DNA of 60,439 bases from Campylobacterota bacterium (GCA_022600175.1 JAHZKW010000159.1:1-60439), one strand, 5' to 3'. Counted from the stretch's first letter, positions 36,152 through 52,263 are shown. A program made the numbers and translations. The notes: generated from the letters alone by a model not told the origin.

Positions 36152-38308
36152 GTGACATATTCTTATATGTCAGAGGGGAATGAGCATGGGGTTGATATGG
36201 AAACTATTATAGATTTTCTCATACGTGAAAACCGTATAGAAAATGAGCATTTGATTAAATACCGTACAAAATTTATCAATATTACAGTGCAATTAGTTGC
36301 TTTAATCGCTCTTGTGATGGGGTTTGTACGCTATTTTCATGCTGAATATGTGATGAGTATTATTGATTTTATACTTTTTAGCTTTGGCATCTATATCATC
36401 TTTTATAATCAAGTAAATCCTAAAAATATTAATCGTGTTATTCAGGTTTTTCTCTTTGTCTTTTTCTTTTTTAGTTTCTTTTTAATGTATGCAGGTGACT
36501 ACGCAGTGAAGGTCACGATGTTTTTTATGTTTCTATCGGCTGCTATGTTTTTACAAGGTAAAAAAGCAGGTTTTTACTGGTATCTTGCAATCTTGATTGC
36601 CTCGATCTTACTCTATCTTTTTACTGAGTATTGGACAGGACATAATCTTACCTCTTTTTTAATGCTTCTGTTTTTTTTAACAGGGCACTATTCTGTGATT
36701 TTACTTTATGAAAATCAACAAGTAGATAGTCAAAAAGCACTTGAATCAATCAATCATAGATTAGATCAAACAGTTAAATCACGTACGCAAGAGCTTGAAG
36801 TGCAAAAAGAGGCATTTGAAACACTTTATAATAAATCCTCTGATGGTATTTTACTTTTGGAAAACCAAAAGTTTATCGATTGTAATGAATCTGTTGTAAA
36901 GATGTTAGCGTTTGATTCAAAAAAAGAGGTGATTGATAAAACGCCACTTGATCTCTCTCCAAAGTTTCAAGCTGATGGTATGCTCTCTTATGAAAAAGCA
37001 GACCTTATGATCAAGAAGTGTGAAAAATATGGCACTTGTAATTTTGAATGGTTGCATCTTAAGTCAGATGGTAAAGAGTTTTGGTGTGAGGTGGTATTGA
37101 CTCGAATTATGTTACATCAAAAACCTATTATACATGTGGTGTGGAGAGATATTAGTCTGCGTAAAGTGTTAGAACATGATGTCCAAAAACAGGCACAAAA
37201 ACTTGAAGAGTTTAATACACAGTTAGAAGAAAAAGTTCAGATACAAGTGGCAAAAGTACAAGAGACATTAGATAATTTTAAAATTTTAATTGATTCGATT
37301 ATTGAGGCAGTGGTGCTTTTTGATGCTGCAGATGGTATTGTTGAGTGTAATAAAGTGGCATTAGATATGTTTGGGTATAACAGGTCTGAGATCATGGGTA
37401 AAGATATTTATGACTTTGTGCATAAAGATGATCGCGATATTATTGATAATAATCTTTTATCCAATACCTCAGAACCTTATGAAGTGCGTGCAGTGACGAG
37501 TGATGGAAGAGTAATCCCTATTCTTGTGAGTGGCGCAGATATGATCTATAATGATAGCGCTGTACGTATTGTAACGATTGTTGATTTGAGTGAGTTAAAG
37601 CAGAAAGATCAAATACTTCAACTCCAATCTCGCCATGCTGTAATGGGTGAGATGATTGGTATGATAGCCCATCAGTGGAGACAACCTTTGGCGGCTGTTT
37701 CGGGTACAGTTGCTACTTTAAATTTAGATATTATGATGGATCATTATGACAATAAGCTTTTTAAAGACCACCTAGAGAGGATTAATCAGCATATACAATT
37801 TCTCTCAACAACTATTGATGATTTTAGAAACTTCTTTAAAGAGAATAAACAGTTAGCTCCGACCTCGTTAGAGACTATTATTGATGATAGTTTAAAAATT
37901 ATTGGTCCTACTGTTGAAGAGAATAGTATTGAAATTATTAAAGAGTATAAGTCAGATTATACTTTTTACTCATATCCCAATGAGTTAAAACAAGTGGTAT
38001 TAAATTTGATTAAAAATGCCCAAGATGCCTTATTGGAGAATAGAGTAAAATCACCAAGGATTAGCCTTAGTACCAGTCGCATCCATAATGATCTGACATT
38101 AGAAGTGTGGGATAATGCTGGTGGGATATCAGAAGTATTGATTGATTCAATTTTTGAACCTTACTTTACAACTAAAGAGAAAAAGGATGGTACAGGACTT
38201 GGTCTTTATATGTCTAAAATGATTATTGAAGAGCACTGTGATGGTGAAATATCTGTAAAAAATTGTGAAGAAGGAGCAAAATTTACAATTTTATTAAAAT
38301 GTGTTTAG
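36152..38308 (+). CDS. membrane-anchored PAS sensor histidine kinase (orphan; paralogue of 6080-7915)
   Basis: About 5 N-terminal TM helices, two PAS domains, H-box HQWRQPLAAV and G-box GTGLGLYMSK. The exact start is uncertain (an ATG at 36197 is possible). Confidence 0.8.
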   Translation: MTYSYMSEGNEHGVDMETIIDFLIRENRIENEHLIKYRTKFINITVQLVALIALVMGFVRYFHAEYVMSIIDFILFSFGIYIIFYNQVNPKNINRVIQVFLFVFFFFSFFLMYAGDYAVKVTMFFMFLSAAMFLQGKKAGFYWYLAILIASILLYLFTEYWTGHNLTSFLMLLFFLTGHYSVILLYENQQVDSQKALESINHRLDQTVKSRTQELEVQKEAFETLYNKSSDGILLLENQKFIDCNESVVKMLAFDSKKEVIDKTPLDLSPKFQADGMLSYEKADLMIKKCEKYGTCNFEWLHLKSDGKEFWCEVVLTRIMLHQKPIIHVVWRDISLRKVLEHDVQKQAQKLEEFNTQLEEKVQIQVAKVQETLDNFKILIDSIIEAVVLFDAADGIVECNKVALDMFGYNRSEIMGKDIYDFVHKDDRDIIDNNLLSNTSEPYEVRAVTSDGRVIPILVSGADMIYNDSAVRIVTIVDLSELKQKDQILQLQSRHAVMGEMIGMIAHQWRQPLAAVSGTVATLNLDIMMDHYDNKLFKDHLERINQHIQFLSTTIDDFRNFFKENKQLAPTSLETIIDDSLKIIGPTVEENSIEIIKEYKSDYTFYSYPNELKQVVLNLIKNAQDALLENRVKSPRISLSTSRIHNDLTLEVWDNAGGISEVLIDSIFEPYFTTKEKKDGTGLGLYMSKMIIEEHCDGEISVKNCEEGAKFTILLKCV

Positions 38309-38346: not shown

Positions 38347-38385
38347 TGCATCTTAAAATGATAACGACTTTCATTTTAAGATGCA
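38347..38385. promoter_or_regulatory. palindromic operator candidate upstream of the Fur-fold regulator
   Basis: Perfect 15-bp arms TGCATCTTAAAATGA and TCATTTTAAGATGCA with a 9-nt spacer. The core CTTAAAATGA-N9-TCATTTTAAG (38352-38380) is identical to the site at 48946-48974. No T-run follows. Confidence 0.55.
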
Positions 38386-38442
38386 TTAAAGGAACTTTAT
38401 CGCACTATTATTTTTGAAAAAGATTTTCATTACTAAAGAGGT

Positions 38443-38853
38443 GTGATTTTGTTTGAAAAAGCGTTAGAAAAATTAGAGCAATGTATTAAAAGGAATGATT
38501 TAAACTATTCTGCTGTAAGAGAGGTCGCTCTCAAAGAGATTGCTTATGCGGAGCGAGGATTATGTGCAGATGAAATCCATCAAAGGGTAAATGAAAAGGT
38601 ACAGAAGAAAGTATCGTATAATACAGTCTATAGAGTGCTTCGTCTGTTTGAAGAGTGTGGTATTGTCATTACCATTCAAAGTAACGCTAAAAAAACACAC
38701 TATTTTCTTGCTGATGTGAAAACAAAGCTTTATCTTTTTGATGTTAAAAATCATCAAGTGAGTGCGATAAAAGCGCCTGATGTGGCAGATTCATTGCTAA
38801 AAGAGTTGGATCTAAATAGTACACACAATTTTATTGTTATCCATAAAAACTAA
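38443..38853 (+). CDS. Fur-family-fold transcriptional regulator lacking canonical metal-site motifs
   Basis: The N-terminal winged helix resembles Fur/PerR (AVREVALKEI...LCADEIHQRV...VSYNTVYRVLRLFEECGIV). There is no HHxH or CxxC cluster in the C-terminal half. The TTG at 38449 has better spacing to AAAGAGG than the tracked GTG. Confidence 0.6.
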   Translation: MILFEKALEKLEQCIKRNDLNYSAVREVALKEIAYAERGLCADEIHQRVNEKVQKKVSYNTVYRVLRLFEECGIVITIQSNAKKTHYFLADVKTKLYLFDVKNHQVSAIKAPDVADSLLKELDLNSTHNFIVIHKN

Positions 38854-38864
38854 AGGAGCAGATC

Positions 38865-39173
38865 ATGTCTGTTTTAGTGATTGGCGGAGATGATATTTTC
38901 GCTATCAAAGGTGTCTTGTATGGTTTAGGTGCCAAAGAAGTAAACCATTGGGATGGAGAGAAAAATGATGCTTTATCAGCCAAAGCAATTCCATCACATA
39001 CTGACTATATCCTTATGATGACTGATTTTATTAATCAAAAAATGGTGGATCAATATAAAAAAATGGCTCACAAAGAGGGGATTCCTTTAGTTTGCACAAG
39101 ACGTAGTGTGAGTTGTGTCTATGGGGAGTTTTGTAAAGTATTGGGTAAAGATTTTGGTTGCCCTTTTAACTAA
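38865..39173 (+). CDS. DUF2325-like small protein
   Basis: The pattern VLVIGGDD...HWDG...TDYILMMTDFINQKMV matches my memory of DUF2325. RBS AAAGGAG is present. Confidence 0.55.
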   Translation: MSVLVIGGDDIFAIKGVLYGLGAKEVNHWDGEKNDALSAKAIPSHTDYILMMTDFINQKMVDQYKKMAHKEGIPLVCTRRSVSCVYGEFCKVLGKDFGCPFN

Positions 39174-39190
39174 TTAGATAAGGAGATAAA

Positions 39191-39253
39191 ATGAAACATG
39201 ATGAGTGTTTTGGGATGGATGATCTTATCGATCCTAATGGATGTACATGCTAA
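39191..39253 (+). CDS. unannotated 20-aa acidic Cys-containing peptide (MKHDECFGMDDLIDPNGCTC)
   Basis: AAGGAG at 39180-39185, 5-nt spacer, ATG at 39191, TAA at 39251-39253. It overlaps the apbE start codons and is below the ORF-track size cut-off. Confidence 0.35.
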   Translation: MKHDECFGMDDLIDPNGCTC

Positions 39254-40194
39254 ATAGAGGCTTGAAAGTAGTCGTGGTATGTTTGATACTACCACTGCTT
39301 TTATCTTCAGATATGGTAACCCGTAATCAAGTGATCATGGGTACAACTGCAACAATCTCTTTAGAAGAGCGTTATCAAAAAGAGATACAACAAGGGTTTC
39401 AACATCTGCATAAAATTGAACGCTCACTCTCTAGTTATGATCCTCATGCTTTAGTCTATCAACTTAACAGCAAAAAAAGTATTGAGCCAGATCGTTATCT
39501 TTTAGATGTTTTAGCGAAAAGTAGACATTTTTATCAGTTAACTGATGGTTATTTTGATATTACAGTGGGTGCCCTTACCAAGGGTTTATACCATTTTGGA
39601 GAGAAAGAGCGTCTACCTAGCTTACAAGCAATGGCGCAGGCAAAAGTAAATTTTTATGGCATTGTAGTTGATAAAAGAGAGATCACGTTGAAAGAGGGGA
39701 TCACGATTGATTTAGGTGGTATTGGTAAAGGATATGGTATCGATCAGGTGGCTGAGGTCTATGATGAAGTAAATATTACAGAAGGTAAGATCTCACTTAG
39801 TGGAGATATACGATGCATCGATCCTTGTCAATTTTTTATACAAGATCCATTTAATGTGCAAGAGAGATATTTTAATATGCAAGCAAAAATCCCTCATCTT
39901 GCAATTTCAACGAGTGGCACGTATGAACGTTATATAAAATCACAAAAAAATCATCACTTAATCAATCCCAAACGTAAAAAACAGGGGCAAGATTTTGTTT
40001 CAGTAACGATCTTTACAGATGGGGATAATACAAAAGCAGATGCTTTAGCCACAGCTGTTTCGGTGATGCCTAAAAAAGAAGCTATAGCATTTTTACAACA
40101 ACAAGGGATTGGCTATATTTTAATTGCACCCAATGCACAAGTAATCTCTGGAAATTTAGAGCGTTTTATAGAGTTTGATGATGAGATAGAGTGA
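39241..40194 (+). CDS. apbE: ApbE-family FAD:protein FMN transferase, exported
   Basis: Signal peptide, then VIMGTTATI and the DLGGIGKGYGIDQ motif typical of ApbE/Ftp. Confidence 0.85.
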   Translation: MYMLNRGLKVVVVCLILPLLLSSDMVTRNQVIMGTTATISLEERYQKEIQQGFQHLHKIERSLSSYDPHALVYQLNSKKSIEPDRYLLDVLAKSRHFYQLTDGYFDITVGALTKGLYHFGEKERLPSLQAMAQAKVNFYGIVVDKREITLKEGITIDLGGIGKGYGIDQVAEVYDEVNITEGKISLSGDIRCIDPCQFFIQDPFNVQERYFNMQAKIPHLAISTSGTYERYIKSQKNHHLINPKRKKQGQDFVSVTIFTDGDNTKADALATAVSVMPKKEAIAFLQQQGIGYILIAPNAQVISGNLERFIEFDDEIE

Positions 40195-40341
40195 AAGTAT
40201 ACAAAGTGTCAATGTTGAGAGTAGTTTTAAAAGGCTAAAGAATACAGTGCTACTGATAAAAAATGAGACAACATTGGAGGTGAGCATCACGATAAAAAGC
40301 AGAAGAGTGTATTTTGATATTTTATATTTGTGTTTGATCAC
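40156..40341 (-). CDS. small two-helix membrane protein
   Basis: 61 aa. GTG start forms a GTGA overlap with the upstream stop. The 3' end overlaps the apbE 3' end by 39 nt on the other strand. Confidence 0.35.
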   Translation of the reverse strand: MIKHKYKISKYTLLLFIVMLTSNVVSFFISSTVFFSLLKLLSTLTLCILSLYLIIKLYKTL

Positions 40342-40565
40342 AGCAAAAAGTGTGTTAATATAAAAAAGATGATACTCATACCAAATAGATGCGGACTTAC
40401 AGTCTCTAAAAGTCCAAAAAAACTTTTTTGCGTATAGTAGGCGGTGGTGCCATCAACTGACCAGTGGGTATGAAGTGTGAACATCCATGCACCGGTAATT
40501 AATAACAAGACAGTTAGCAGTAAAAAGTAGCGAATAACTATGGCAAAGTGTTGTTCTTGAGTCAT
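40338..40565 (-). CDS. small His-containing two-helix membrane protein
   Basis: Start re-set to the ATG at 40565 (MTQEQHF...), which forms an ATGA overlap with the upstream stop. It carries the motif LLETVSPHLF. Confidence 0.5.
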   Translation of the reverse strand: MTQEQHFAIVIRYFLLLTVLLLITGAWMFTLHTHWSVDGTTAYYTQKSFFGLLETVSPHLFGMSIIFFILTHFLL

Positions 40566-41032
40566 CGTGTTAATCCTATAAGTATCATGAGTGCCATGAG
40601 CATTGCTAGTAGATGCCACAGTATACATAGAACAATCCAGAATACAATAAAAGTAACACCCCAGTAATAGCCCATAAGTAGAGTGATATGAGAGAGTATG
40701 GCTGTACTAAAAGAGAAGTGTAGTAATTTATTGAGCACACTTGTCTGTTTTGCTACCGCAACAAAGATTGATGATATGACTAAGAGGGTGAGTAGTGAGA
40801 TGAAAATATCTATATGTACCCGCTCTAATAAAGTATCAAATAAAATTGGATCTATAAAGTTCTCTTCATCACCCATAATTGTTGAGGTGGCTGCTTCCAG
40901 GGTTAATCCAATTTGATAGTGATGTAGTATAAGATCCAAGATCAAAAAGAGAAGTAAAATGGCAGTAACCACCCATACAAGTTTTTTTAATAGTGGATTA
41001 TGATCTAACGTTTTAGTGACTAAAAACTTCAA
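40562..41032 (-). CDS. four-helix His-containing membrane protein
   Basis: 156 aa with about 4 TM helices and several intramembrane His residues. It carries the motif LLERVHIDIF. 4-nt overlap with the FMN-binding gene. Confidence 0.6.
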   Translation of the reverse strand: MKFLVTKTLDHNPLLKKLVWVVTAILLLFLILDLILHHYQIGLTLEAATSTIMGDEENFIDPILFDTLLERVHIDIFISLLTLLVISSIFVAVAKQTSVLNKLLHFSFSTAILSHITLLMGYYWGVTFIVFWIVLCILWHLLAMLMALMILIGLTR

Positions 41033-41544
41033 GGTGCTTTTACCTCAATCACTGCTAACGCAATTCTTGCAGCATCACTTAGTGCTCTTGCTGACATGGT
41101 AGCACCACTGATGGTCGGAATATCTTTCCCACTGATGATCATATCTTTGCCACTTTTCCCCGTAAATACAGCTTGCCATTTTTTGTTAGGTTTGTACTCT
41201 CTTGGTTCTGAGAAAGAGAGGATTTCAATTGATTTTAGTTTTTTACTGTTATCTATCATATATAAAACAGCAGCGTTTTTTGTGCGTATACGTCTTTTTA
41301 GAAGTACGCCATAGCCTACAAGGGTGTTCTCTTTTTTTAGATTATAAAGACGTACAATTTTAGAGTTTAACTTTGCTCTCGCTTTTTGTTGAATAGCTTG
41401 CGCCTCTTTTTTTGTTAAAATGATACTCTTTTTTTCTATAACAAGATCACTAGAAAAGTTTGTTTTTAAGATCTCTTCTACAGAAATATTACCTTTGGCA
41501 AAAAGTGTAGTTGCAAATGCAACTACAAGTAGTAAACCTCTCAT
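41029..41544 (-). CDS. exported FMN-binding-domain protein (flavinylation target)
   Basis: Signal peptide present. The C-terminal DIPTISGATMSARA matches the FMN_bind/ApbE substrate motif (SGAT). Confidence 0.75.
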   Translation of the reverse strand: MRGLLLVVAFATTLFAKGNISVEEILKTNFSSDLVIEKKSIILTKKEAQAIQQKARAKLNSKIVRLYNLKKENTLVGYGVLLKRRIRTKNAAVLYMIDNSKKLKSIEILSFSEPREYKPNKKWQAVFTGKSGKDMIISGKDIPTISGATMSARALSDAARIALAVIEVKAP

Positions 41545-42750
41545 TTATGGCTCCAAAAGATGTTCATAACGTTTATCTGTCAACGTTTTTAAAAATGCTT
41601 CCAGTGCATCTAACTTATCATCTGTAAGCTCAGGCATTGCAAGATCCTCATGATTGATAGTTGTATTAACATCAGTCTGTCTCCATGGTGCATTTGTTTC
41701 TGGATTGAGTGGTCGATCTCCATCACCCATATGATCATAAAACTCTAGTACAGTACGAAGTTCTTTGAAAACACCGTTATGCATATATGGCCCTGTAATA
41801 GCGATATTTCTCAGGGTCGGTACTTTGATTGCACCATCAAGTGCACTATCATTAATCGTACTTTGACTTAGTATACCATGTTCGGTTGTATTCTCATCTA
41901 ATCCTTTGATCGCTAAGATATCAAAGTTTTTAGGTGTTCCGATATTATGGTACTCATAGTTTGAAAAAGTTTCATTTTTAAGACCCTCTAATGACTGTAA
42001 CATATGACAGTTAATACAGTTTGTATTTGCTTCAGAAAAGAATAGGCTCATACCCAGCTCTTCAGGGATTGTCCAATTACCCTCGCTTAAACATACACTG
42101 GTGCGTTTTGTCTCCTTACAGGTTAAAAACCTATCATATTTAGAATCAAACGGTGCAAACTCTTCTGTTTTTTCAAACTTACCAATGGCCTCTCCCATTG
42201 CCTCATAAGAAGCATTGATATCATCAAAAATTCCTACGCCATAGTGTGTTTCAAATGCTATCACATAATCAGGGTTTTCTTTAATTCTATCAATCACAGC
42301 GTCACGACTTGGCATCATCATCTCTGCTTGATCTAGTGGAGGACCCATGGCTTGGTCTTTAAGGGTCGCAGCACGTCCATCATGAAATTGTCCCCCAATA
42401 TATTGTGAGTTATTTACATCAAAATGAAACGAAGGACTAAACATTGCATAAGCTGCTGTAGGAGCATTTCTTCCACCTAGTGCTGCGCCATCATCTCCGA
42501 CTGAGAGAGCCCCATTGACAAAGATACTTTGATCTGCATCTTCTGCTAAAAATCTGGCATCAATAAAGCCATGATCGGGATCATGACAGGTGGCACAGGC
42601 TGTTTGTCTATTGAGTGAAAGATTTGTATCAAAATAGAGACTTTTACCTAACTTCTCTTTTGTATCAAATGTGATACTTTCACTACTACCGCTCCCACAT
42701 GCACTAAAAAGTAGTGCAGTGGTGGTGAGATACATCAATGACTTTTTCAT
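41545..42750 (-). CDS. di-haem cytochrome c peroxidase (CCP/MauG family) lipoprotein
   Basis: Lipobox LFSAC. Haem motifs CATCH and CINCH are present, along with GGQFHDGRAATL and PTLRN blocks. Confidence 0.88.
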   Translation of the reverse strand: MKKSLMYLTTTALLFSACGSGSSESITFDTKEKLGKSLYFDTNLSLNRQTACATCHDPDHGFIDARFLAEDADQSIFVNGALSVGDDGAALGGRNAPTAAYAMFSPSFHFDVNNSQYIGGQFHDGRAATLKDQAMGPPLDQAEMMMPSRDAVIDRIKENPDYVIAFETHYGVGIFDDINASYEAMGEAIGKFEKTEEFAPFDSKYDRFLTCKETKRTSVCLSEGNWTIPEELGMSLFFSEANTNCINCHMLQSLEGLKNETFSNYEYHNIGTPKNFDILAIKGLDENTTEHGILSQSTINDSALDGAIKVPTLRNIAITGPYMHNGVFKELRTVLEFYDHMGDGDRPLNPETNAPWRQTDVNTTINHEDLAMPELTDDKLDALEAFLKTLTDKRYEHLLEP

Positions 42751-42759
42751 GCTATCCTC

Positions 42760-44100
42760 CTAAAAGATAAATCCAGCAGTTGCTGTAAAAACACTCTCAT
42801 CTGCTAATTTTGCATTTGAGGCATAATCTTTGGTGGCAAATTCTGCTTTGATTACCACTTTAGGATCAGGGAAATAGGCAATTCCAGCCGAGTATTCTAC
42901 AAATTTGTAGTTATCACTATATTGGGTTTCATCATCAGCATCAAGGTCAAGTCTCTCTAGATCTAAAACAGCAAAAAGTTTATGAGAAGTTTTATATTGG
43001 TGTAAGATATCGTAGCCTATTGTAAGATATTGACCATTGACACTTCCTGATATTGTTGAATCTTCAGTATTTAACTTTTTATATTCGTCTCCTAATGAAC
43101 CGACCACTGCAAGTGCTTGAATATCAAAACCGTTGTTTTTGTAACTGGCATGGGCTTCAGCCATTGTAATTGAGACATCAGCTTCTAAGGTATTGACAGT
43201 TGCACCTGGTTTATCTTGTGCTAAAACGGAGCTTTGTCCATAGTAGAGTGATCCACCAATATCAAGTCCAGGTTGTATCGTATATGCACCACGCGCCACA
43301 AAAGAGAGGTCATCTGTAAATTGGCGTGCCCCAAGTCTTCCTTGTTGGATAAAACGTCCTTCTGTAAATTTTCCAGCATCAGGCGATGTGACAATACCAA
43401 CGTAGTAGTCTACCTCTTTGATGTTACCATAGAGTAGAGCTCCATTTGTATGCCAAGTAGATGGGATGATATATGTTTCAACCAATGGACGCTCTGCTGT
43501 AAGATAAGAGGTAGGTTCATGGTTTAAGTTGATATTTCCAAATGGGGTGAGGATATGTCCAATACGTAAGTTATAAGCTTCATCAAACAAAAAATCAAGA
43601 TAAGAGAACTCTACGATCACATATTTATAGTTTTTTTCACCGTCACTTCTTGCCCCTCCGTCTTCAAATTCAACTTCTGTGTTCATCACAATCCAGTCAT
43701 TGAATTTGAATCCAAAGTAGGGTACAAAACGGACAACATTAGTCTCTGATGTCTCTCTTGTATCATTATTGACACTATCACTGTAGTTTTTAAAATCAGT
43801 ATACTTTTTATATTTGTAAGAGCCATAACCGCCTAAAGAGACAACAGAGTTTGAGTGGTAGACTTTTGAGGCCGCTTTTCCTAATGCACTGACACTTTCA
43901 TATGGGTCACCGCTAAAAGAGGGGTCTTTTGCATTTTCAATCTCCTCAATCAGTGTTTCGTTATTGGCTTGTTGCTCTTTTTTATAACTTTGAAATTCGC
44001 TTTTAAGGGCTTTGAGTTCTGCTTCAAGTTCTGCATTGCTTGCAGCATAAAGTACCATCTGTGAAGAGAGTACCAAGGATAGCGTGGTTTTTTTGATCAT
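42760..44100 (-). CDS. outer-membrane porin with N-terminal coiled coil (paralogue of 48999-50147)
   Basis: Signal peptide, coiled coil (ELEAELKALKSEFQ), beta-barrel pattern and C-terminal Phe (GFIF). Confidence 0.65.
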   Translation of the reverse strand: MIKKTTLSLVLSSQMVLYAASNAELEAELKALKSEFQSYKKEQQANNETLIEEIENAKDPSFSGDPYESVSALGKAASKVYHSNSVVSLGGYGSYKYKKYTDFKNYSDSVNNDTRETSETNVVRFVPYFGFKFNDWIVMNTEVEFEDGGARSDGEKNYKYVIVEFSYLDFLFDEAYNLRIGHILTPFGNINLNHEPTSYLTAERPLVETYIIPSTWHTNGALLYGNIKEVDYYVGIVTSPDAGKFTEGRFIQQGRLGARQFTDDLSFVARGAYTIQPGLDIGGSLYYGQSSVLAQDKPGATVNTLEADVSITMAEAHASYKNNGFDIQALAVVGSLGDEYKKLNTEDSTISGSVNGQYLTIGYDILHQYKTSHKLFAVLDLERLDLDADDETQYSDNYKFVEYSAGIAYFPDPKVVIKAEFATKDYASNAKLADESVFTATAGFIF

Positions 44101-44984
44101 AATTTTATTCCTTTGATAAATGGGTTTAAAAATAGTCCTAAAAGAGAGTGTGTAATCTGCTCATCTTTGAGTCCAAATGTTAAATTTTCTTTTTTTGTTG
44201 ATGTATGGGTTTTAAATAAAAAATCCCAGATTGCTAAATAGCTTCCATAATTTTTATGGCTATAGGCTTTGGTATGATGAAGTTGATGCTGGTAGGGTGA
44301 AATGATCCATTTTTCTACTTTTGTACCAAAACTCAGTGGTATATGTGAGTGTCTTAAGTTTGCACCTAAGAGTGAAAAGACAAAGACAAAAATATTAACA
44401 CCTAAAATTTCATATAGTGCAATACCTGCTCCAAAAAAGTAGATAAAAATAGCAGTGACCATACCTACACTCACTGCATATCGAAGACCAAAAAGAAGAT
44501 GTTCTATAGGGTGAATACGGTAATAGGTCAAAGGGTTAAGTACTTCAGCACTATGGTGAACTCTATGAAAACGCCATAAAATAGGTACTGTATGCATGAG
44601 TCTATGTAACCAATAACGGGTAAAGTCATTGACAATAAAAAGGGCACATGAATATCCTAGTACTAACCATAGTTTATCAACTCTAATCCGCTCCATATAA
44701 CCAAAGTAGTGTTGAAGTTGCATTACCGTCCAATAAGCAACATCACTAACACCAATGAGTAGTGGAATGAGTAATGTCATTTTAATTACTGTAGAGATCA
44801 TGAAATAGAGATAGTCTAATTGTGCTGATTTATGCCATAGGATTTTTTTTGAAAATTGTCTCTTTAAAATAGCAGGTGTGTGCCAAAAGAAGAGAAGTGC
44901 TAACACCAATGCACTCAACATATAGCCTATATAGATACGCTGATCTGCATCGATAAAGTAGTTAAACCCTAGTAATTCAGCCAT
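44097..44984 (-). CDS. membrane fatty-acid hydroxylase / sterol-desaturase superfamily di-iron enzyme
   Basis: His boxes HRLMH, HRVHH and HQLHH in a polytopic protein. Confidence 0.8.
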   Translation of the reverse strand: MAELLGFNYFIDADQRIYIGYMLSALVLALLFFWHTPAILKRQFSKKILWHKSAQLDYLYFMISTVIKMTLLIPLLIGVSDVAYWTVMQLQHYFGYMERIRVDKLWLVLGYSCALFIVNDFTRYWLHRLMHTVPILWRFHRVHHSAEVLNPLTYYRIHPIEHLLFGLRYAVSVGMVTAIFIYFFGAGIALYEILGVNIFVFVFSLLGANLRHSHIPLSFGTKVEKWIISPYQHQLHHTKAYSHKNYGSYLAIWDFLFKTHTSTKKENLTFGLKDEQITHSLLGLFLNPFIKGIKL

Positions 44985-46084
44985 TAGTCACCATCTGCCT
45001 CAATGATTTTAGAGGTAATGTTTAAAGCATTGATCAATGATAGATAGTAGCCATTGTGTAAATTGACTAAAGCCAAATAGAGCTCATGGATCTTTTCATC
45101 ACTCACACTCTCTTCAAGCGTTTTGTCAAAACTATCTACAAGGGTTTGTGCAGCATTGATGTAGCCGATCACCTCTTGTAACTCTTTACTTGCACTGTTT
45201 GCGTTGGCAAAATCAGAGAAATTACTAAAGCTTTGTGGTTTCATAAGCTTTGCATGTGTCTCTAAAATTGCTTTGATACCTTCTAATGAGGCACGACTTC
45301 TATAGTACTCTAGACGTTTTTGATTGGATTGATTTTTATACTTGACTGTTAAACCAGCAGCATCTCCAACACGCCACTCCTTGAGTTTATAAGAGCTATC
45401 TATGAGTATATTCATTAAGGAGTCTGATGCTTCTTGTACATCTGCTTTGAATGTTGTATCATTTTGATAGAAAGTTAGAATGGGTGTTGTTCTTTTGATA
45501 AGGTTATCTATCACTAATCCAATGGCTTGGATGCGTCGCTTATTACTCTTTTGCATCTCAACAAGCAGTGCTTCATTGGTCTCTGCTTCACCAAAAAGAA
45601 GATACTCTAATGCAGTAAAACCTTTAGTTGAGTTTTTATAGAGTAGTCCTGCTAAATCAGCTTCTTTAGCCAAGATATTATCTAAGAGTGTTGCAACACT
45701 CTCATTTCCGATATGAAAATGATCAATCAATATCACCAAATCTATAAGCTCTTTATCAAAATCAGCCGCAATAAATGCAGTTTGTACATTTTTCCAGCTA
45801 AAAGCAGACGTTTTAAAATTCTCTTGAATAAGAGCTAGTTGGTTGAGTGTGGTATTGGTTTCAAATGTGCTAACACTTGTTTTTAATGTTTGTAGTGATT
45901 GTTGTAATTTTTCTGCATCAGGAATGAGGATATTCTCTTGGATAGAGGTAAAGGCATCTGTCGTGGTTTGTGCTTTTGCACTGATAAGACCCTCTTCACC
46001 ATCATAGGCATTCTCTCCTCCACAAGCTGCAAAAAATAGAATTAGTATACCTCCAATGAGAGGCATCAATAGTTTTTTGAACAC
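44984..46084 (-). CDS. imelysin-like (Peptidase_M75 fold) lipoprotein, second copy
   Basis: Lipobox FFAAC. The motif GFTALEYLLFGE is typical of the imelysin family. Confidence 0.75.
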   Translation of the reverse strand: MFKKLLMPLIGGILILFFAACGGENAYDGEEGLISAKAQTTTDAFTSIQENILIPDAEKLQQSLQTLKTSVSTFETNTTLNQLALIQENFKTSAFSWKNVQTAFIAADFDKELIDLVILIDHFHIGNESVATLLDNILAKEADLAGLLYKNSTKGFTALEYLLFGEAETNEALLVEMQKSNKRRIQAIGLVIDNLIKRTTPILTFYQNDTTFKADVQEASDSLMNILIDSSYKLKEWRVGDAAGLTVKYKNQSNQKRLEYYRSRASLEGIKAILETHAKLMKPQSFSNFSDFANANSASKELQEVIGYINAAQTLVDSFDKTLEESVSDEKIHELYLALVNLHNGYYLSLINALNITSKIIEADGD

Positions 46085-46093
46085 ATGTTTCCT

Positions 46094-47449
46094 TTATAGT
46101 GAGTGCAAGAATTGTAAAACTTGCGCTCTTGATTTTTTATCTAATGCCATAAAAGCATTTTTTGATTTTTGGGCTTCGCCTCCATGCCAAAGAATTGCTT
46201 CTTCAATAGTTCGTGCACGTCCATCATGCAGATAGTTTGCTTCACCACTAACTGTTTTATAAAGACCGATTCCCCATAATGGTGCAGTTCTCCACTCTCT
46301 GCCATCTGCTAAAAACTCACTACGTCCATCTGCTAAACCTTCTCCCATATCATGAACCAATAGATCCGTAAATGGATGAATAGTTTCGCCATTTACTGTT
46401 TTATGTGTAGTGACATGACAAGCTGTACAGTTGAGCGTTTTGAAGAGTTTTGCACCTTTGGTATGTTGCTTAGGGTTTCGTTGGTTTGGTACACTAAGGT
46501 TTGATACATAATAAGTTATAGCGTCAAGTCTATTACCTGGTAAGTCAAAAGTATGTTTCCCTTTGGGTGCTTTTAAACAGGCCTCTTGTTTTTCACTGCA
46601 GTTGTCTGAAGGAAAGAGAGGGTTACTTAACCCCATATCGTTATGGGCAGCAGCTGCAGATTGCACTTTAACCGTGGATGCAGATGCTTTCCATGTAAAA
46701 CGTCCTAAAGTTGTTTTGTTTGTCTCTGGTGAATAGACAAGATTTGCTTTGCCTGAGATACCATCATGGTTACTATCATTGATATCTTCTAAGTTAAGAA
46801 TATCCTTTTGAGGGATATCCTCTAAAAGCCCTAATCCAATGAGTGGCGTACCGATACGTGGCGCAAAGATAGTCTCTTTGTCAAATGCTCCATAAACCTT
46901 TTTGGTAATAGTGTAGTGTGGTTTACGTAAACTATAAGTGGTGCCATCAGGATAAGTACCATCAATAGTATTATAAGTGAGGGATACTTTTCCTTCATAA
47001 GGGACACTATGGTTACCATTGAGACTAAGTTGTGCCCCATACATTGAGTCAGGTTCAAAACCTATTGTTTTTACCTTTTGCATATCTTTTGGGTTTTTAT
47101 GTGAAAGTCTTAGTAGATGTGATCTTGTCATGGTGCCGTTTTTTGTTACTGCCACGCCCGCACCATTGTTGGGATGACAGGTGATACATGTGTTGGCATT
47201 AAAGAGAGGTCCTAATCCATCTCGTGCTGTGGTTGCAGAGGGGGCCTCTACCCATGGTACACGAAAAAAACTTTTGCCTAAAATAAACATATCTTCTTCA
47301 TCATGTGTCATAGATTTGGGAGGGACGGAGAAGGATTTTTTGCAAGATTTATTTGTACTTAGAGTGCCGCCGAGTTTGCCATATTGATAATTTGAGGTAC
47401 TATTTCCAGTAACCGTAAAGGCTACCAGAAATATCAGTATATTTTTCAT
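46094..47449 (-). CDS. DUF1111 di-haem oxidoreductase (peroxidase-like)
   Basis: Haem motifs CITCH and CTACH. Its position between two imelysin genes matches the described imelysin/DUF1111 cluster. Confidence 0.8.
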   Translation of the reverse strand: MKNILIFLVAFTVTGNSTSNYQYGKLGGTLSTNKSCKKSFSVPPKSMTHDEEDMFILGKSFFRVPWVEAPSATTARDGLGPLFNANTCITCHPNNGAGVAVTKNGTMTRSHLLRLSHKNPKDMQKVKTIGFEPDSMYGAQLSLNGNHSVPYEGKVSLTYNTIDGTYPDGTTYSLRKPHYTITKKVYGAFDKETIFAPRIGTPLIGLGLLEDIPQKDILNLEDINDSNHDGISGKANLVYSPETNKTTLGRFTWKASASTVKVQSAAAAHNDMGLSNPLFPSDNCSEKQEACLKAPKGKHTFDLPGNRLDAITYYVSNLSVPNQRNPKQHTKGAKLFKTLNCTACHVTTHKTVNGETIHPFTDLLVHDMGEGLADGRSEFLADGREWRTAPLWGIGLYKTVSGEANYLHDGRARTIEEAILWHGGEAQKSKNAFMALDKKSRAQVLQFLHSL

Positions 47450-47451
47450 CT

Positions 47452-48882
47452 TTATTCAAGGTTACTGACATCAGTTTCATCTTCATCTGTGACATCTGCT
47501 GTTGTCATAGAGATACCAAACTCAGATGCAATTTTTACGATTTCATCACCTAAATCACGCATATCGTTTTTTGCATCTCTTACATTACTTCTGTTCACAC
47601 TATCAGCTTTAATTTGATAGTCAAAGTGTTCACCACCTGTTGCTTTTGCTGCTGCATCGATTTTTGCAACTTTTGTATCAATTGAGGTGATAAGTTCATC
47701 AATTTTAGCTTTTTCATCACTACTTAAAAGTGCATAAACACTGTTCCCATAGTCTGTACCATTATAGGTTCCCTTAAGTACGTTTGTAAAACCTTTATAG
47801 TTTAAGTCAATATCTCTATGTGTATTATCACTAAAGCATGAGTGTTCATCCTCTTCACTTGGTGTCAATACTGCGATTGCAATTCTCTCATTTGCTAATT
47901 CAGATTTGATAAACATACCCATTCCTGCAAAAATATCTTTGAGTGCTGTTGTTTGTGCAATATTCTTATCTGCATCTGTACCTGTTAATTCACCTAAAAG
48001 TGCTTTTCTATATTTACCTTTATCTCCATCAAGATCTTTGTTCCAAGCATCTCTTACAACGATAAGATCATCAACAAGTTTGGTTGCTGCTGCATTTAAG
48101 TACGCCTTTCTTCTTTCACTTTCAGTATTATCATCTGTATAATCTGATAAAGATCTTTCACCTGCCTTTTGCGCACCATGAGTAATGTTATCTGCACCTG
48201 GTGTTTCATAATCTTGATCTTGTCCCCAAAGTAAAAACTCGATCGCATGGTATCCTGTTGCAACATTGGCTTCACCACCATTTTCGTTGAGTGCTGTCAG
48301 TGTTGCAACATTGATCGTTGCAATATTGATCTCAGTTGCATTTTCATCACTATCAGTAGATGTATCCGGTGTGAATAATCCTGTTGAGTCGATGATGTTT
48401 CCAGTTGTTCTCTCTCCTTGATCATCAATTGTATAATCGATCATGTTTTCATCTAGTGGCCATGCATTGATCTGTCCCTCAAGTGCACCATAAGCCTCTT
48501 CAACCCAATTTCCCTCTGCATCAACTGGTCCATTTGAGAGTCTAAAGATTTCAGTTTGACCATAAGATTCACGAGAAGTAAGCCATGCATCTTTTGCTGC
48601 TTGTAGTGTTGTTTCTGTTGGTGTTGTTGTAAATGCTTCAAGTGCGGTTTTGAGTGCTTGTGCATCTGTGATTGAGTCTGTGTAAGCATCAAGTGCAATG
48701 TTTGAGTAGCTCTCTAAAACACTTTTAATTGTTTTTGTTTGTGCGGTTGCGTTCATATCTTTTACCATGGTAAAAGTTTCTGTAGCTGTTGTAGTGTCAT
48801 TGTTACTACTGCCACATCCGACCATTGATAGTGAAAGTGCTGCCGCTAATGACAAAGCACCTAATTGATTTCTGATTTTCAT
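47452..48882 (-). CDS. imelysin-like iron-regulated protein A type lipoprotein
   Basis: Lipobox MVGC. It carries the motif GYHAIEFLLWGQD. Confidence 0.8.
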   Translation of the reverse strand: MKIRNQLGALSLAAALSLSMVGCGSSNNDTTTATETFTMVKDMNATAQTKTIKSVLESYSNIALDAYTDSITDAQALKTALEAFTTTPTETTLQAAKDAWLTSRESYGQTEIFRLSNGPVDAEGNWVEEAYGALEGQINAWPLDENMIDYTIDDQGERTTGNIIDSTGLFTPDTSTDSDENATEINIATINVATLTALNENGGEANVATGYHAIEFLLWGQDQDYETPGADNITHGAQKAGERSLSDYTDDNTESERRKAYLNAAATKLVDDLIVVRDAWNKDLDGDKGKYRKALLGELTGTDADKNIAQTTALKDIFAGMGMFIKSELANERIAIAVLTPSEEDEHSCFSDNTHRDIDLNYKGFTNVLKGTYNGTDYGNSVYALLSSDEKAKIDELITSIDTKVAKIDAAAKATGGEHFDYQIKADSVNRSNVRDAKNDMRDLGDEIVKIASEFGISMTTADVTDEDETDVSNLE

Positions 48883-48942
48883 CTCTTCTCCTATTTAATA
48901 TTGATATTAGATTTCAAAATTATATTAACCAAACCTTATTCG

Positions 48943-48977
48943 AGACTTAAAATGATAATTGTTATCATTTTAAGTCT
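48943..48977. promoter_or_regulatory. palindromic operator candidate (Fur-box-like) upstream of the imelysin operon
   Basis: 16-bp arms AGACTTAAAATGATAA and TTATCATTTTAAGTCT with a 3-nt centre. It contains TGATAAT-t-GTTATCA (7-1-7 Fur-box-like). TATAAT on the minus strand lies at 48924-48919. Confidence 0.55.
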
Positions 48978-48998: not shown

Positions 48999-50147
48999 TT
49001 AAAAGACGTAAGCCGTACCTAGCTCTATACGGTTGTCATCTTCTCCTTTATTATCTCGGATCATATAATCCACTTTTAAAATGACATTTTTAGTGGGTTG
49101 GTAGTTAAGTCCGATGACTGTGTTTGTGACATCGTCATCAGCTGGAACTTCTGTTCCTTCTTGATTATATTTTTCATCGAAACGGTTATATGTTTCATAC
49201 CGTATGAAAGGGGTGAAGTGCTCATTGATATCATATGAGGCATTAAGATAGTAACCTACACCTTTACCCGATGCATTCTTTTCTAATTTTTGTGCTACTT
49301 TTGCTGCATCATCAACTTGACTCATCGCATAAAGACCTCTTATTGCAAAACCTTGGATTTTATAACCAGCATGTACCTCTGCAATAGTGGTACTTACACC
49401 ATCAAGAGTATTATCCCCTTGACTTGCATCACCCGTAAAAACTGAAGCACCTAGCATCAGACCTGGCACACCTTGATAATCAACCCGTGCCACAATGCCA
49501 AAATCATCTGCTTTTGATTTTTGTCCACTTTGACGCATAGCCCGTACTTCGCTACCTTGTCCCGCATTAAGTCCTGCAACAATACCTATTTGATAAGCGA
49601 TGTCTGAGATACTTCCATGTAAGATTGCACCATTTTCATGCCATGTAGAAGGGATGATATACTTTTCAACTTCTGGACGATTCACAGCGTTAAAAGCAGT
49701 AGCTTCATGATAGAGGTTGATATAGCCTACTGGAACGATGACATGACCTAGTTTTACACTTGCCATTTCATTGAGTGTGAAGTCTAAGTAGGCTTGTTCA
49801 ACAATGCCATATCCACCAGTTTTTTCTCGTCCACCATGTTCCCACTCTAGTTCAGAAACAAATTTGATATTATCTGTAAATTGGTATCCAACATAGAGAA
49901 TAGCACGATAGATATCTAGTTTATCTGTTGCGTCGTCATCATCTAGGTATTTGATATAATCCATCTTCCCATAACCACCGATTGAGACACGATCCATTAC
50001 TGAAGATGCACTCTCCTTTTCTTGCATTGTTGCAATTTCGTTGATCAATTGATCATATTTTGTATTGAGCTCTTCTAGATTAGCTGCATTTATTTGTGTC
50101 ACTGCACAAAGACTCATTACTGTCATAAGACTATGTAATTTTTTCAT
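48999..50147 (-). CDS. outer-membrane porin with N-terminal coiled coil
   Basis: It shares RPEVEKYIIPSTWHENGAILHG with 42760-44100 (RPLVETYIIPSTWHTNGALLYG). C-terminal Phe (AYVF). Confidence 0.65.
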   Translation of the reverse strand: MKKLHSLMTVMSLCAVTQINAANLEELNTKYDQLINEIATMQEKESASSVMDRVSIGGYGKMDYIKYLDDDDATDKLDIYRAILYVGYQFTDNIKFVSELEWEHGGREKTGGYGIVEQAYLDFTLNEMASVKLGHVIVPVGYINLYHEATAFNAVNRPEVEKYIIPSTWHENGAILHGSISDIAYQIGIVAGLNAGQGSEVRAMRQSGQKSKADDFGIVARVDYQGVPGLMLGASVFTGDASQGDNTLDGVSTTIAEVHAGYKIQGFAIRGLYAMSQVDDAAKVAQKLEKNASGKGVGYYLNASYDINEHFTPFIRYETYNRFDEKYNQEGTEVPADDDVTNTVIGLNYQPTKNVILKVDYMIRDNKGEDDNRIELGTAYVF

Positions 50148-51626: not shown

Positions 51627-51772
51627 CTTAAATCCTTTTTGAATTTGAAAATAGTTATCGAAATGATATTGTTTTATTCTTAAAATAAATTGAAATCGAA
51701 AATGGTTATCAAATTAAGTTGTAAGTAAGTTTGCCTCTTTTATGATTGCATCATCAATTGAGGAGTTGTGTC

Positions 51773-51910
51773 ATGCATGAACGTAAAGAGTTAATATATG
51801 AGTTAGGTATATTTGTACTACTTATTGTGGTAATAGGACTTTTTACCTATAGTATCGTGCATCTTCTCTCTGATAAAAACTTGATAGCGTTTATCACTTA
51901 TATATCGTAA
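51773..51910 (+). CDS. unannotated 45-aa single-helix membrane peptide
   Basis: GAGGAG at 51760-51765, 7-nt spacer, ATG at 51773 (MHERKELIYELGIFVLLIVVIGLFTYSIVHLL...), TAA at 51908-51910. Confidence 0.3.
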   Translation: MHERKELIYELGIFVLLIVVIGLFTYSIVHLLSDKNLIAFITYIS

Positions 51911-52042: not shown

Positions 52043-52263
52043 AGAACTTAATTTTTATACTAATTTTTTCAGCTTTTACATTTCAGGCATGTAGTGTAAA
52101 AAAGACAGGAGTAGAGTGTGAAAAGAGTAGTCATATCAATAGTGACAGCAACGGTAGTAGTGAGTGCATCAACAAATGTCAAACTAGATACAATCATGGT
52201 AACCACAGCTACAAAGACAAGCAAAAATATCGAAGGTGTGAGCGCGAGTGTCATCGTCGTTGA
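52039..52263 (+). CDS. possible small Cys/His-rich lipoprotein overlapping the receptor gene out of frame
   Basis: RBS AAAGAGGA lies 6-7 nt upstream. Lipobox TFQAC is present. The last 146 nt overlap the TonB-dependent receptor in another frame, so it may be spurious beyond the signal peptide. Confidence 0.25.
   Translation: MKNLIFILIFSAFTFQACSVKKTGVECEKSSHINSDSNGSSECINKCQTRYNHGNHSYKDKQKYRRCERECHRR

What the first reader, a model, noticed from the sequence alone, without database searches (positions are those of the whole stretch)
38347..48977. Identical 29-bp palindromic operator in front of a metal-site-less Fur-fold regulator and the imelysin operon
CTTAAAATGA-TAACGACTT-TCATTTTAAG (38352-38380) and CTTAAAATGA-TAATTGTTA-TCATTTTAAG (48946-48974) have identical 10-bp arms and identical 9-bp spacing. 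Each lies roughly 20-25 bp upstream of a -10-like hexamer, over the -35 region. One precedes the gene 38443-38853, whose product has a Fur-type winged helix but none of the His/Cys metal-site clusters. The other precedes the 10-gene periplasmic redox operon. This suggests an autoregulated, dedicated regulator, possibly sensing something other than Fe(II) directly, layered on a site that also looks like a 7-1-7 Fur box.
Basis: partly seen in the sequence, partly recalled or inferred. Interest (0 to 1): 0.65.

Follow-up and report, generated by a model that had tools for sequence, protein, structure and literature searches.

The report
Fur-box promoter modules of an iron island
The two identical palindromes are real, but they are the standard iron-repressor (Fur) binding box fused to the local promoter's -35 element; the same module controls iron genes in relatives that lack the odd neighbouring Fur-like regulator, so a private operator for that regulator is possible but not shown.

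Summary
Observation confirmed. Both 29-bp sites are exact, are the only strict copies in the 2.5-Mb genome, and are longer than reported (15- and 16-bp arms).

Each site is a 7-1-7 Fur-type box (TGATAAy-n-AyTnTCA), then one base, then TTTAAG (the Campylobacter -35 consensus), with a -10-like hexamer 21-23 nt further on.

A weight matrix finds a third strong copy upstream of a canonical fur-DUF1232-feoAB operon. A fourth, weaker module precedes the window's TonB-receptor operon.

The same module precedes feoA, feoB and porin genes in ten genomes of other families that have only canonical Fur. In G027 one palindrome serves two divergent operons (imelysin and fur2-feoAB), with a -10 on each side.

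The hairpins are not conserved and have no T-tract.

The local regulator (FurL) has a full Fur fold. It lacks canonical metal sites S1-S3 but keeps four invariant Cys/His. It belongs to a rare clade usually found beside DUF2325 and ferritin.

Two-armed palindromes are enriched in genomes with this clade (3/12 against 1/389), but they also occur without it (G005).

Verdict: these are ordinary Fur-family operator/promoter modules of an iron island. A FurL-dedicated operator is unproven (about 25%).

The parts
38347..38385 (+). Site 1: full palindrome TGCATCTTAAAATGA-N9-TCATTTTAAGATGCA (15-bp arms) upstream of the Fur-like gene
   Evidence: RNA fold -18.9 kcal/mol in this genome only
38359..38373 (+). 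Site 1 core: 7-1-7 Fur-type box TGATAAC-G-ACTTTCA ('GACT' variant; 3 mismatches to TGATAATnATTATCA)
   Evidence: Conserved as TGATAAyGACTnyCA upstream of all 7 FurL orthologues. An identical 22-mer lies at C18:1472-1493.
38375..38380 (+). TTTAAG, the -35-type promoter element of the FurL operon
   Evidence: Invariant in orthologues and always 21-23 nt before a -10-like hexamer. The C. jejuni -35 consensus is TTTAAGTnTT (PMC3824568).
38403..38411 (+). -10 region candidates CACTAT / TATTAT
   Evidence: Aligned with CATAAT, CAAAAT and CAGAAT of the orthologues
38411..38429 (+). Second conserved block TTTTTGAAAAAGATTTTCA (a putative second operator at about +1; carries the Fur half-site ATTATCA in orthologues)
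   Evidence: Alignment A1. A near-identical block lies in the G005 TonB-receptor promoter and a related one in G028.
38449..38853 (+). FurL: 134-aa divergent Fur-family regulator (an alternative GTG start is at 38443)
   Evidence: PF01475 at 45 bits. AF2 pLDDT 85, TM 0.78 to H. pylori Fur 2xig. No NCBIfam equivalog. Canonical S1-S3 ligands absent. Invariant C39, C70, H84, H132.
38865..39173 (+). DUF2325 protein, the conserved partner gene of FurL-type regulators
   Evidence: adjacent to FurL-type genes in 8 loci
39241..40194 (+). ApbE flavin transferase, last gene of the FurL transcription unit
   Evidence: same arrangement in L017
48943..48977 (-). Site 2: full palindrome AGACTTAAAATGATAA-TTG-TTATCATTTTAAGTCT (16-bp arms) upstream of the imelysin operon
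48953..48967 (-). Site 2 core: near-consensus 7-1-7 Fur box (TGATAACAATTATCA on the minus strand; 1 mismatch)
   Evidence: orthologous site in G027
48946..48951 (-). TTTAAG (minus strand), the -35-type element of the imelysin operon promoter
48919..48924 (-). TATAAT (minus strand) -10 hexamer, 21 nt after TTTAAG
40338..48882 (-). Tightly packed operon: imelysin, DHOR di-haem protein, imelysin, FA_hydroxylase, OMP, cytochrome c peroxidase, FMN_bind protein, small membrane proteins
51697..51746 (+). A further, weaker module of the same architecture: CGAAAATGGTTATCA-A-ATTAAG, 22 nt, TATGAT. It lies upstream of the mini-ORF 51773-51910 and the TonB-dependent receptor 52118-54220.
   Evidence: orthologous module in G030

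Best explanation
Each palindrome is a Fur-family operator built into a sigma-70 promoter of an iron-acquisition island. The central 15 bp form a 7-1-7 Fur box (TGATAAy-n-AyTnTCA). One base further on lies TTTAAG, the -35-type element of Campylobacterales promoters, and a -10 hexamer follows 21-23 nt later. A second box-like block sits around the transcription start.

Under iron-replete conditions a Fur-family dimer occupies the box and blocks RNA polymerase. The most likely binder is the canonical Fur encoded on contig C37, possibly with the fur2 product. Under iron limitation the FurL-DUF2325-ApbE unit, the imelysin/di-haem/peroxidase operon, fur2-feoAB and the TonB-receptor operon are all de-repressed together.

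The shared 10-bp 'arms' are the outer three bases of the box (TGA/TCA), an A/T tract, and the -35 hexamer together with its mirror image. In G027 the mirror image is a second, divergent promoter. In this genome the mirror copies may be relics of that arrangement or extended A/T-rich contacts.

FurL is a regulated member of this regulon. Whether it also binds the boxes is open.

Shown: the sequence architecture, its conservation, and its independence from FurL. Inferred: which protein binds, and that binding represses.
For: - Exact sites, only two strict copies in the genome.
- A weight matrix finds a third site at C18:1472-1500, with a 22-nt core identical to site 1. It lies 50 nt upstream of a canonical Fur (HHDH plus 2x CxxC) that heads fur-DUF1232-feoA-feoB.
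- The pattern TGATAAYGACTNYCANTTTAAG (up to 1 mismatch) hits 11 of 301 genomes of the order, against 2 for the reversed control. The hits lie upstream of feoA (6), feoB, porin and other genes. Nine of those ten other genomes have no FurL-type gene at all; the tenth, G082, has a distant FurL-like paralogue.
- Every site has a -10-like hexamer starting 21-23 nt after TTTAAG. TTTAAGTnTT is the published C. jejuni -35 consensus.
- Site 2 matches TGATAATnATTATCA with 1 mismatch.
- In G027 one palindrome lies between the divergent imelysin and fur2-DUF1232-feoAB operons, with TACTAT and TATAAT 22 nt out on either side.
- G028 (99% complete) and G005, both without a FurL-type gene, carry the full architecture (box 1, -35, 22 nt, -10, box 2). 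In G005 it is two-armed and almost identical to the FurL promoter, but it drives a TonB receptor.
- All regulated genes are iron-related. Imelysin genes are Fur- or PerR-controlled in other bacteria.
Against: - No binding or expression data exist.
- Two-armed palindromes are strongly enriched in genomes with FurL-type genes (3/12 against 1/389, Fisher p = 8e-5). In G082 all three copies lie inside the FurL-like/DUF2325 island.
- Site 1 and all FurL promoters carry a conserved non-consensus right half (GACTnyCA), which canonical Fur might bind poorly.
- fur2 is also confined to FurL-bearing genomes, so three paralogues are candidates.
- The perfect outer-arm symmetry of the two window sites (7/7), extended by different flanking bases, is not explained by a divergent promoter in this genome.
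- G005 is only 89% complete, so a FurL-type gene could have been missed there.
Confidence: 0.6

Rival explanations
1. One reading: the two-armed 27-29-bp palindrome is the cognate operator of the FurL-type regulator. FurL autoregulates and controls the imelysin operon, overlaying or competing with canonical Fur at a Fur-like core. The signal may be sensed through its invariant Cys/His residues or through the co-encoded Cys-rich DUF2325 protein.
For: - Two-armed palindromes occur in 3/12 genomes with FurL-type genes against 1/389 without.
- In G082 and G067, in another family of the order, the FurL-like gene is preceded by CTTAAAATGAtAAcGATTATCGtTTTAAG-type palindromes with the same arms.
- In G030 the identical 17-mer ATGATAATGACTTCCAT precedes both FurL and an imelysin-DHOR operon.
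- FurL keeps the Fur recognition-helix Tyr-Arg pair and the R24/E25 residues.
- FurL, fur2-feoAB and the imelysin operon occur only together in the family.
Against: - The same core and promoter module occur in FurL-less genomes.
- The left arm is not conserved in 5 of 6 FurL orthologue promoters, which show 2-4 of 7 matches.
- 9 of 12 FurL-type genomes lack the two-armed site, and some FurL-type genes have no box at all (G333, G372/G384).
- The enrichment may only reflect common descent of a mobile iron island that carries its own promoters.
- G301 has an xACT box at feoB with only canonical Furs.
Confidence: 0.25
2. The second canonical paralogue Fur2 (C18:978-1421) is the main binder of the 'GACT' variant boxes, autoregulating and cross-regulating FurL. 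Fur2 heads the feoAB operon and is found only in the island-bearing genomes.
For: - The fur2 promoter carries the 22-mer identical to site 1.
- fur2 orthologues exist only in G000 and G027.
- In G027 the fur2 promoter shares its box with the imelysin operon.
Against: - FurL orthologue contigs from metagenomes cannot be checked for fur2.
- G082 has GACT boxes with no fur2-type gene evident. It has one canonical Fur plus the FurL-like gene.
- The recognition helices of the G000 and G027 Fur2 proteins differ (YQ against YR).
Confidence: 0.1
3. The palindromes act mainly as RNA hairpins that end or stabilise the transcripts of the upstream co-directional genes (the PAS histidine kinase ending at 38308 and the porin ending at 48999).
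For: - Both sites lie 25-39 nt after a co-directional stop codon.
- Both fold at -18.9 kcal/mol, z about -6.
- The arm extensions differ in sequence between the sites but remain complementary.
Against: - There is no T-tract, and no terminator-like call.
- Orthologous FurL-upstream sites do not fold (z from -2.0 to +0.8), although their core sequence is conserved.
- The upstream genes differ between genomes, yet the site keeps a fixed register to the downstream -10.
- In G027 the site lies between divergent genes, where no transcript can end.
Confidence: 0.05

Closest known systems
Classical Fur box (7-1-7 TGATAATnATTATCA; Baichoo and Helmann model) at iron-uptake promoters such as feoAB. Solved Fur-operator complexes include M. 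gryphiswaldense Fur-feoAB1 (4RB3).
   Same: An inverted 7-1-7 core, a position over the -35/-10 region, two boxes per promoter, iron-acquisition target genes, and the same module at feoA in related genomes.
   Different: The box is fused at fixed register to the Campylobacter-type -35 element TTTAAG. In a few genomes it is mirrored into a 27-35-bp perfect palindrome. The FurL and fur2 promoters carry a conserved degenerate right half (GACTnyCA).
Campylobacter jejuni sigma-70 promoter (-35 TTTAAGTnTT, -16 TTTTTTTG, -10 TATAAT; Wosten et al., as cited in PMC3824568)
   Same: TTTAAG is invariant and followed by a -10-like hexamer at constant distance in all 20 sites examined.
   Different: The organisms here are uncultured Campylobacterales MAGs. 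The promoter assignment is by sequence only, with no mapped transcription starts.
Helicobacter pylori and C. jejuni Fur (PDB 2xig, 4ets, 6d57), the nearest solved relatives of FurL
   Same: Winged-helix plus dimerisation-domain fold (TM 0.78 to 2xig) and the recognition helix motif TVYRxL.
   Different: About 20% identity. S2 ligands are replaced (A37 for H42, F86 for E90). There is no HHDH cluster and no CxxC pairs. No NCBIfam Fur, PerR, Zur or Irr model comes near its cut-off.
Irr-type Fur-family regulators (haem-responsive and lacking the structural zinc site)
   Same: Fur-family members without the Cys4 site. The Irr models are FurL's second-best NCBIfam hits (32 bits).
   Different: The scores are far below the cut-offs (150-170 bits). 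FurL has no Cys-Pro haem-regulatory motif or His-cluster. The taxon and gene context (DUF2325, ferritin) also differ.
C. jejuni Cj1384c (a DUF2325 protein in the PerR-regulated katA cluster; PMC9426514)
   Same: A small Cys-containing DUF2325 protein under the control of a Fur-family regulator in a Campylobacterota iron/peroxide context.
   Different: Here DUF2325 is co-transcribed with a Fur-like regulator and often with ferritin, not with catalase.

Membership tests
Fur box (7-1-7 operator) | Inverted repeat matching TGATAATnATTATCA | tested here: met
   Site 2 has 1 mismatch. Site 1 has 3 mismatches (TGATAAC-G-ACTTTCA), so it is a degenerate member. The feoA sites in relatives are perfect.
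Fur box (7-1-7 operator) | Overlaps or abuts core promoter elements of the regulated gene | tested here: met
   The box ends 1 nt before TTTAAG, and a -10-like hexamer follows 21-23 nt later at all 20 sites. This rests on sequence only, with no mapped transcription starts.
Fur box (7-1-7 operator) | Found upstream of iron-homeostasis genes and conserved across species, independent of any accessory regulator | tested here: met
   Found at feoA, feoB, porin, TonB-receptor, fur2 and imelysin genes. Present in genomes with only canonical Fur.
Fur box (7-1-7 operator) | Bound by metal-loaded Fur, with iron-dependent repression | not testable with these tools
   Needs EMSA, footprinting or reporter assays.
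Fur family protein (PF01475), for the 38449-38853 product | Pfam FUR match above the gathering score and a Fur fold (wHTH plus dimerisation domain) | tested here: met
   45.4 bits against a cut-off of 23.1. AF2 pLDDT 85. Foldseek top hits are all Fur, Mur or PerR, with TM up to 0.78.
Fur family protein (PF01475), for the 38449-38853 product | Regulatory metal site S2 (His/Glu ligands, HHxH cluster) | tested here: not met
   In the alignment to 2xig, H42 becomes A37, E90 becomes F86, and H96-H99 have no counterpart.
Fur family protein (PF01475), for the 38449-38853 product | Structural Zn(Cys)4 site (two CxxC pairs) | tested here: not met
   Absent from all 13 close FurL sequences. Present in the wider short Fur-like clade.
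Fur, PerR, Zur and Irr equivalogs (NCBIfam) | Score above the curated equivalog cut-off | tested here: not met
   The best hit is 34.9 bits against a cut-off of 200 (Helicobacter-type Fur). Irr models score 32 bits against 150-170.
Intrinsic (Rho-independent) terminator | G+C-rich stem followed by a T-tract, with the structure conserved in orthologues | tested here: not met
   No terminator-like call and no T-tract. The stems are A/T-rich. Orthologous sites do not fold.
Dispersed repeat (REP or MITE-like) | Many copies in unrelated contexts | tested here: not met
   2 strict copies and 3-4 matrix hits in 2.5 Mb, all at iron-gene promoters.

The most novel reading that the evidence does not exclude
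FurL-type proteins form a rare clade of short Fur-fold regulators that have lost the regulatory metal site, and in the window's subgroup also the structural zinc site. In this reading they are a second, non-canonical reader of Fur boxes. They would work together with the almost always adjacent Cys-rich DUF2325 protein, and often ferritin. DUF2325 or the invariant C39/C70/H84/H132 set would sense iron, haem or peroxide and switch FurL on the extended two-armed palindromes, adding a second signal to Fur-controlled promoters of a mobile iron/peroxide island.
Probability: 0.2. Interest if true: 0.7.

Novelty: new member of a known kind. Interest (0 to 1): 0.35.

Why it matters
The cis-elements themselves are ordinary. 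They show that the imelysin / di-haem / peroxidase operon, the FurL-DUF2325-ApbE unit, fur2-feoAB and the TonB-receptor operon of this uncultured Campylobacterales organism form one iron-responsive regulon. That supports an iron-acquisition role for the poorly understood imelysin cluster.

They also give a compact, transferable description of a Fur-regulated promoter in this order: box, one base, TTTAAG, 22 nt, -10, second box.

The less ordinary by-product is the FurL-type clade. These are Fur-fold proteins without any canonical metal site, very rare in public data, and consistently linked to DUF2325 and ferritin. DUF2325 is the family of C. jejuni Cj1384c, the most strongly light/ROS-induced gene in that organism and of unknown function. 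If FurL and DUF2325 work together, this would give DUF2325 a testable function.

Tried and rejected
- **Dispersed repeat: rejected.** There are 2 strict copies in the genome.
- **Conserved transcript-end hairpin: rejected as the main function.** Orthologous sites do not fold and there is no T-tract.
- **FurL-exclusive motif: rejected.** The motif occurs in genomes with only canonical Fur.
- **The 'GACT' right-half variant as a FurL signature: first weakened, then left open.**
  - G082, which I took as FurL-less, turned out to have a FurL-like gene.
  - G301 has an AACT box at feoB with only canonical Furs.
- **Recent duplication as the reason for identity between site 1 and the C18 site: rejected.** The similarity stops exactly at the 22-mer and the flanks are unrelated.
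- **Bidirectional promoters as the sole reason for two-fold symmetry: only partly adequate.** It holds for G027 and for two of the G082 sites, but not for the two window sites or for G082 site b.
- **Measuring Cys/His distances in the AF2 model: not possible.** The coordinates are not exposed.
- **A genome-contig scan with the FurL alignment returned only G027 and G030**.

Full report
**1. Observation**

The two 29-mers are at the stated coordinates. The pattern CTTAAAATGA-N9-TCATTTTAAG gives two zero-mismatch hits, against 0.03 expected. These are the only copies in the 2.5-Mb, 36% G+C assembly, even at up to 2 mismatches.

The palindromes are longer than reported:
- Site 1 is 38347-38385, with 15-bp arms.
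- Site 2 is 48943-48977, with 16-bp arms.

**2. Gene context**

- Site 1 lies between a PAS histidine kinase gene (36152-38308, + strand) and a + strand unit: a Fur-family gene (38449-38853, called FurL here), DUF2325 (38865-39173) and ApbE (39241-40194).
- Site 2 lies between a porin gene (48999-50147, - strand) and a tightly packed - strand operon (48882 down to 40338). That operon encodes imelysin, a DHOR di-haem protein, a second imelysin, an FA_hydroxylase, an OMP, a cytochrome c peroxidase, an FMN_bind protein and small membrane proteins.
- Further on lie a flavodoxin operon and a TonB-dependent receptor.
- The genome has five Fur-family genes: a canonical Fur (C37), a second canonical-type Fur (C18), a PerR-like gene (C115), a partial one (C74), and FurL.

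**3. Anatomy of the element**

FurL orthologues (52-71% identity) came from two genomes of the same genus (G027, G030) and four metagenome contigs. Upstream of all seven, the core TGATAAyGACTnyCAnTTTAAG is conserved although the upstream genes differ. The right end, TTTAAG, is invariant. The left arm, CTTAAAA, is not, with 2-4 of 7 symmetric positions.

At all 20 sites collected, a -10-like hexamer (TAnnAT or CAnAAT) begins 21-23 nt after TTTAAG. TTTAAGTnTT is the published C. jejuni -35 consensus (PMC3824568).

The central 15 bp are a 7-1-7 Fur box. Site 2 has one mismatch to TGATAATnATTATCA and site 1 has three. A second conserved block (TTTTTGAAAAAGATTATCA, 38411-38429) lies between the -10 and the ribosome-binding site.

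**4. More copies, and independence from FurL**

A weight matrix built from eight sites finds a third strong site at C18:1472-1500. Its last 22 nt are identical to site 1 and its flanks are unrelated. It lies 50 nt upstream of a canonical Fur (HHDH plus two CxxC pairs) that heads a fur-DUF1232-feoA-feoB operon.

A weaker module (CGAAAATGGTTATCA-A-ATTAAG, 22 nt, TATGAT; 51697-51746) precedes the mini-ORF and TonB-receptor operon. An orthologous module is present in G030.

Across 301 genomes of the order, the core plus TTTAAG (up to 1 mismatch) occurs in 11 genomes, against 2 for the reversed control. Outside the own genome it precedes feoA (six cases), feoB, a porin and other genes. Nine of the ten other genomes have only canonical Fur proteins.

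G028 (99% complete, no FurL-type gene) has the full architecture: box 1, TTTAAT, 22 nt, TAAAAT, box 2. G005 (no FurL-type gene detected, 89% complete) has a two-armed palindrome followed by CATAAT-CCTTTTTTGAAAAAGATTATCA. That is almost the FurL promoter module, but there it drives a TonB receptor.

**5. The palindromy**

In G027 the imelysin operon and fur2-DUF1232-feoAB are divergent. They share one palindrome (CTTAAAATGATAACGACTATCAATTTAAG), with TATAAT and TACTAT 22 nt out on either side. That is a bidirectional promoter with a central operator.

Two of the three G082 palindromes are also in divergent intergenic regions.

This does not explain the two window sites, which face the 3' ends of co-directional genes. 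Their symmetry may be a relic of such an arrangement, an extended protein contact, or a secondary hairpin role.

**6. Hairpin rival**

Both window sites fold at -18.9 kcal/mol (z about -6). The orthologous FurL sites do not fold (z from -2.0 to +0.8). There is no T-tract and no terminator-like call. The G027 site lies between divergent genes. Termination is therefore not the conserved function.

**7. The regulator**

- FurL matches Pfam FUR at 45 bits.
- The AF2 model is confident (pLDDT 85) and superposes on Fur, Mur and PerR structures, with TM 0.78 to H. pylori Fur 2xig.
- In the alignment to 2xig the S2 ligands are replaced (H42 by A37, E90 by F86). There is no HHDH cluster and no CxxC pair.
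- No NCBIfam Fur, PerR, Zur or Irr model comes near its cut-off.
- C39, C70, H84 and H132 are invariant in all 13 close relatives, so 'metal-site-less' holds only for the canonical sites.
- The recognition helix keeps the Fur Tyr-Arg pair. From established Fur-DNA structures (4RB1, 4RB3) this suggests Fur-box-like specificity. That is an inference.
- The family is very rare: 2 representative clusters at E below 1e-30 and 13 at E below 1e-10 among 1.84 billion.
- It nests in a wider clade of 125-142-aa Fur-like proteins that keep the Cys4 site but lack the His cluster.

**8. Does the palindrome track FurL?**

- FurL, fur2 and the imelysin gene occur in exactly the same genomes of the family, so they form one island.
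- The two-armed pattern TTAAAATGATAAYNNNTNTCNTTTTAA (up to 1 mismatch) occurs in 4 of 401 genomes, against 1 for the control: G000, G027, G082 and G005.
- A clade profile separates 12 genomes with FurL-type genes (92-168 bits) from canonical Fur proteins (74 bits or less).
- That gives 3/12 against 1/389 (Fisher p = 8e-5). The genomes are not phylogenetically independent.
- In G082 all three palindromes lie in an iron island that carries a FurL-like gene, DUF2325, ferritin, a porin, an imelysin-like gene, feoA and exbBD-tonB.
- G067 has the same layout.
- In G030 the identical 17-mer precedes both the (broken) FurL gene and an imelysin-DHOR operon.
- DUF2325 lies next to FurL-type genes in 8 loci and ferritin in 6.

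They are equally expected if the island simply carries its own Fur-regulated promoters.

**9. Conclusion**

The architecture (a Fur-type box fused to the -35 element of iron-gene promoters) is well supported, at about 0.85. That canonical Fur is the main binder is the most economical reading, at about 0.6. FurL as the cognate or additional binder is at about 0.25, Fur2 about 0.1, and a hairpin function about 0.05.

There is literature precedent. Imelysin genes are Fur-regulated in Riemerella (PMC5609570) and PerR-regulated in Leptospira (PMC8638851). The C. jejuni DUF2325 gene cj1384c is PerR-regulated (PMC9426514).

**10. Limits**

Most relatives are incomplete MAGs.

Noticed in passing
own genome contig C18:978-1600 (locus L004): A third copy of the element (CTGAATGTGATAACGACTTTCATTTTAAG, 1472-1500, minus strand) lies 50 nt upstream of a second canonical Fur (147 aa). 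That Fur heads a fur-DUF1232-feoA-feoB operon. A YceI-like gene is divergent from it.
   Followed up: yes
window 51641-51746: Tandem Fur-box-like elements sit in the divergent region between the unknown-263aa/flavodoxin operon and the TonB-receptor locus. The + strand one (51697-51718) has the same box / ATTAAG / 22 nt / TATGAT layout and precedes the mini-ORF 51773-51910. The mini-ORF and the module are conserved in G030.
   Followed up: partly
window 38411-38429, and G005 locus L091 about 1555-1585: A second conserved block (CATAAT-CCTTTTTTGAAAAAGATTATCA type) lies downstream of the -10 in FurL promoters. It recurs almost unchanged in a TonB-receptor promoter of a genome without FurL. It is probably a second Fur operator at the transcription start.
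   Followed up: partly
L014 (G030:C130) about 14770-14815: The G030 FurL gene is interrupted by a tandem 13-bp repeat (CAAAAGAGTCAAC, three copies) that shifts the frame. This is either a pseudogene or an assembly artefact.
   Followed up: no
L085 (G082:C1:1515000-1529000): A compact iron island in a complete genome of another family. It carries feoA x2, a 63-aa ferredoxin-like gene, an FTR1-like permease, a multihaem cytochrome, an imelysin/EfeO-like gene, ferritin, a porin, DUF2325, exbBD-tonB and a FurL-like gene. Three two-armed palindromes mark its promoters.
   Followed up: partly
window 38449-38853 and alignments A2/A3: FurL relatives split into two subgroups. One has two extra Cys residues (THYCL...C) aligned with the S2/S3 ligand positions of H. 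pylori Fur. The other, which includes the window's protein, has none. P0016 is an intermediate that still has both CxxC pairs.
   Followed up: partly
L094 (G027:C346:883-2346) and L085 10042-10068: The arrangement DUF2325 gene, then palindrome, then porin gene recurs in G027 and G082. In G027 DUF2325 is not next to FurL but sits here.
   Followed up: no
window 39241-40194 and 41029-41544: ApbE in the FurL unit probably flavinylates the FMN_bind protein of the convergent imelysin operon. Co-regulation of the two units through the same box therefore makes functional sense. The same pairing is seen in L017.
   Followed up: no
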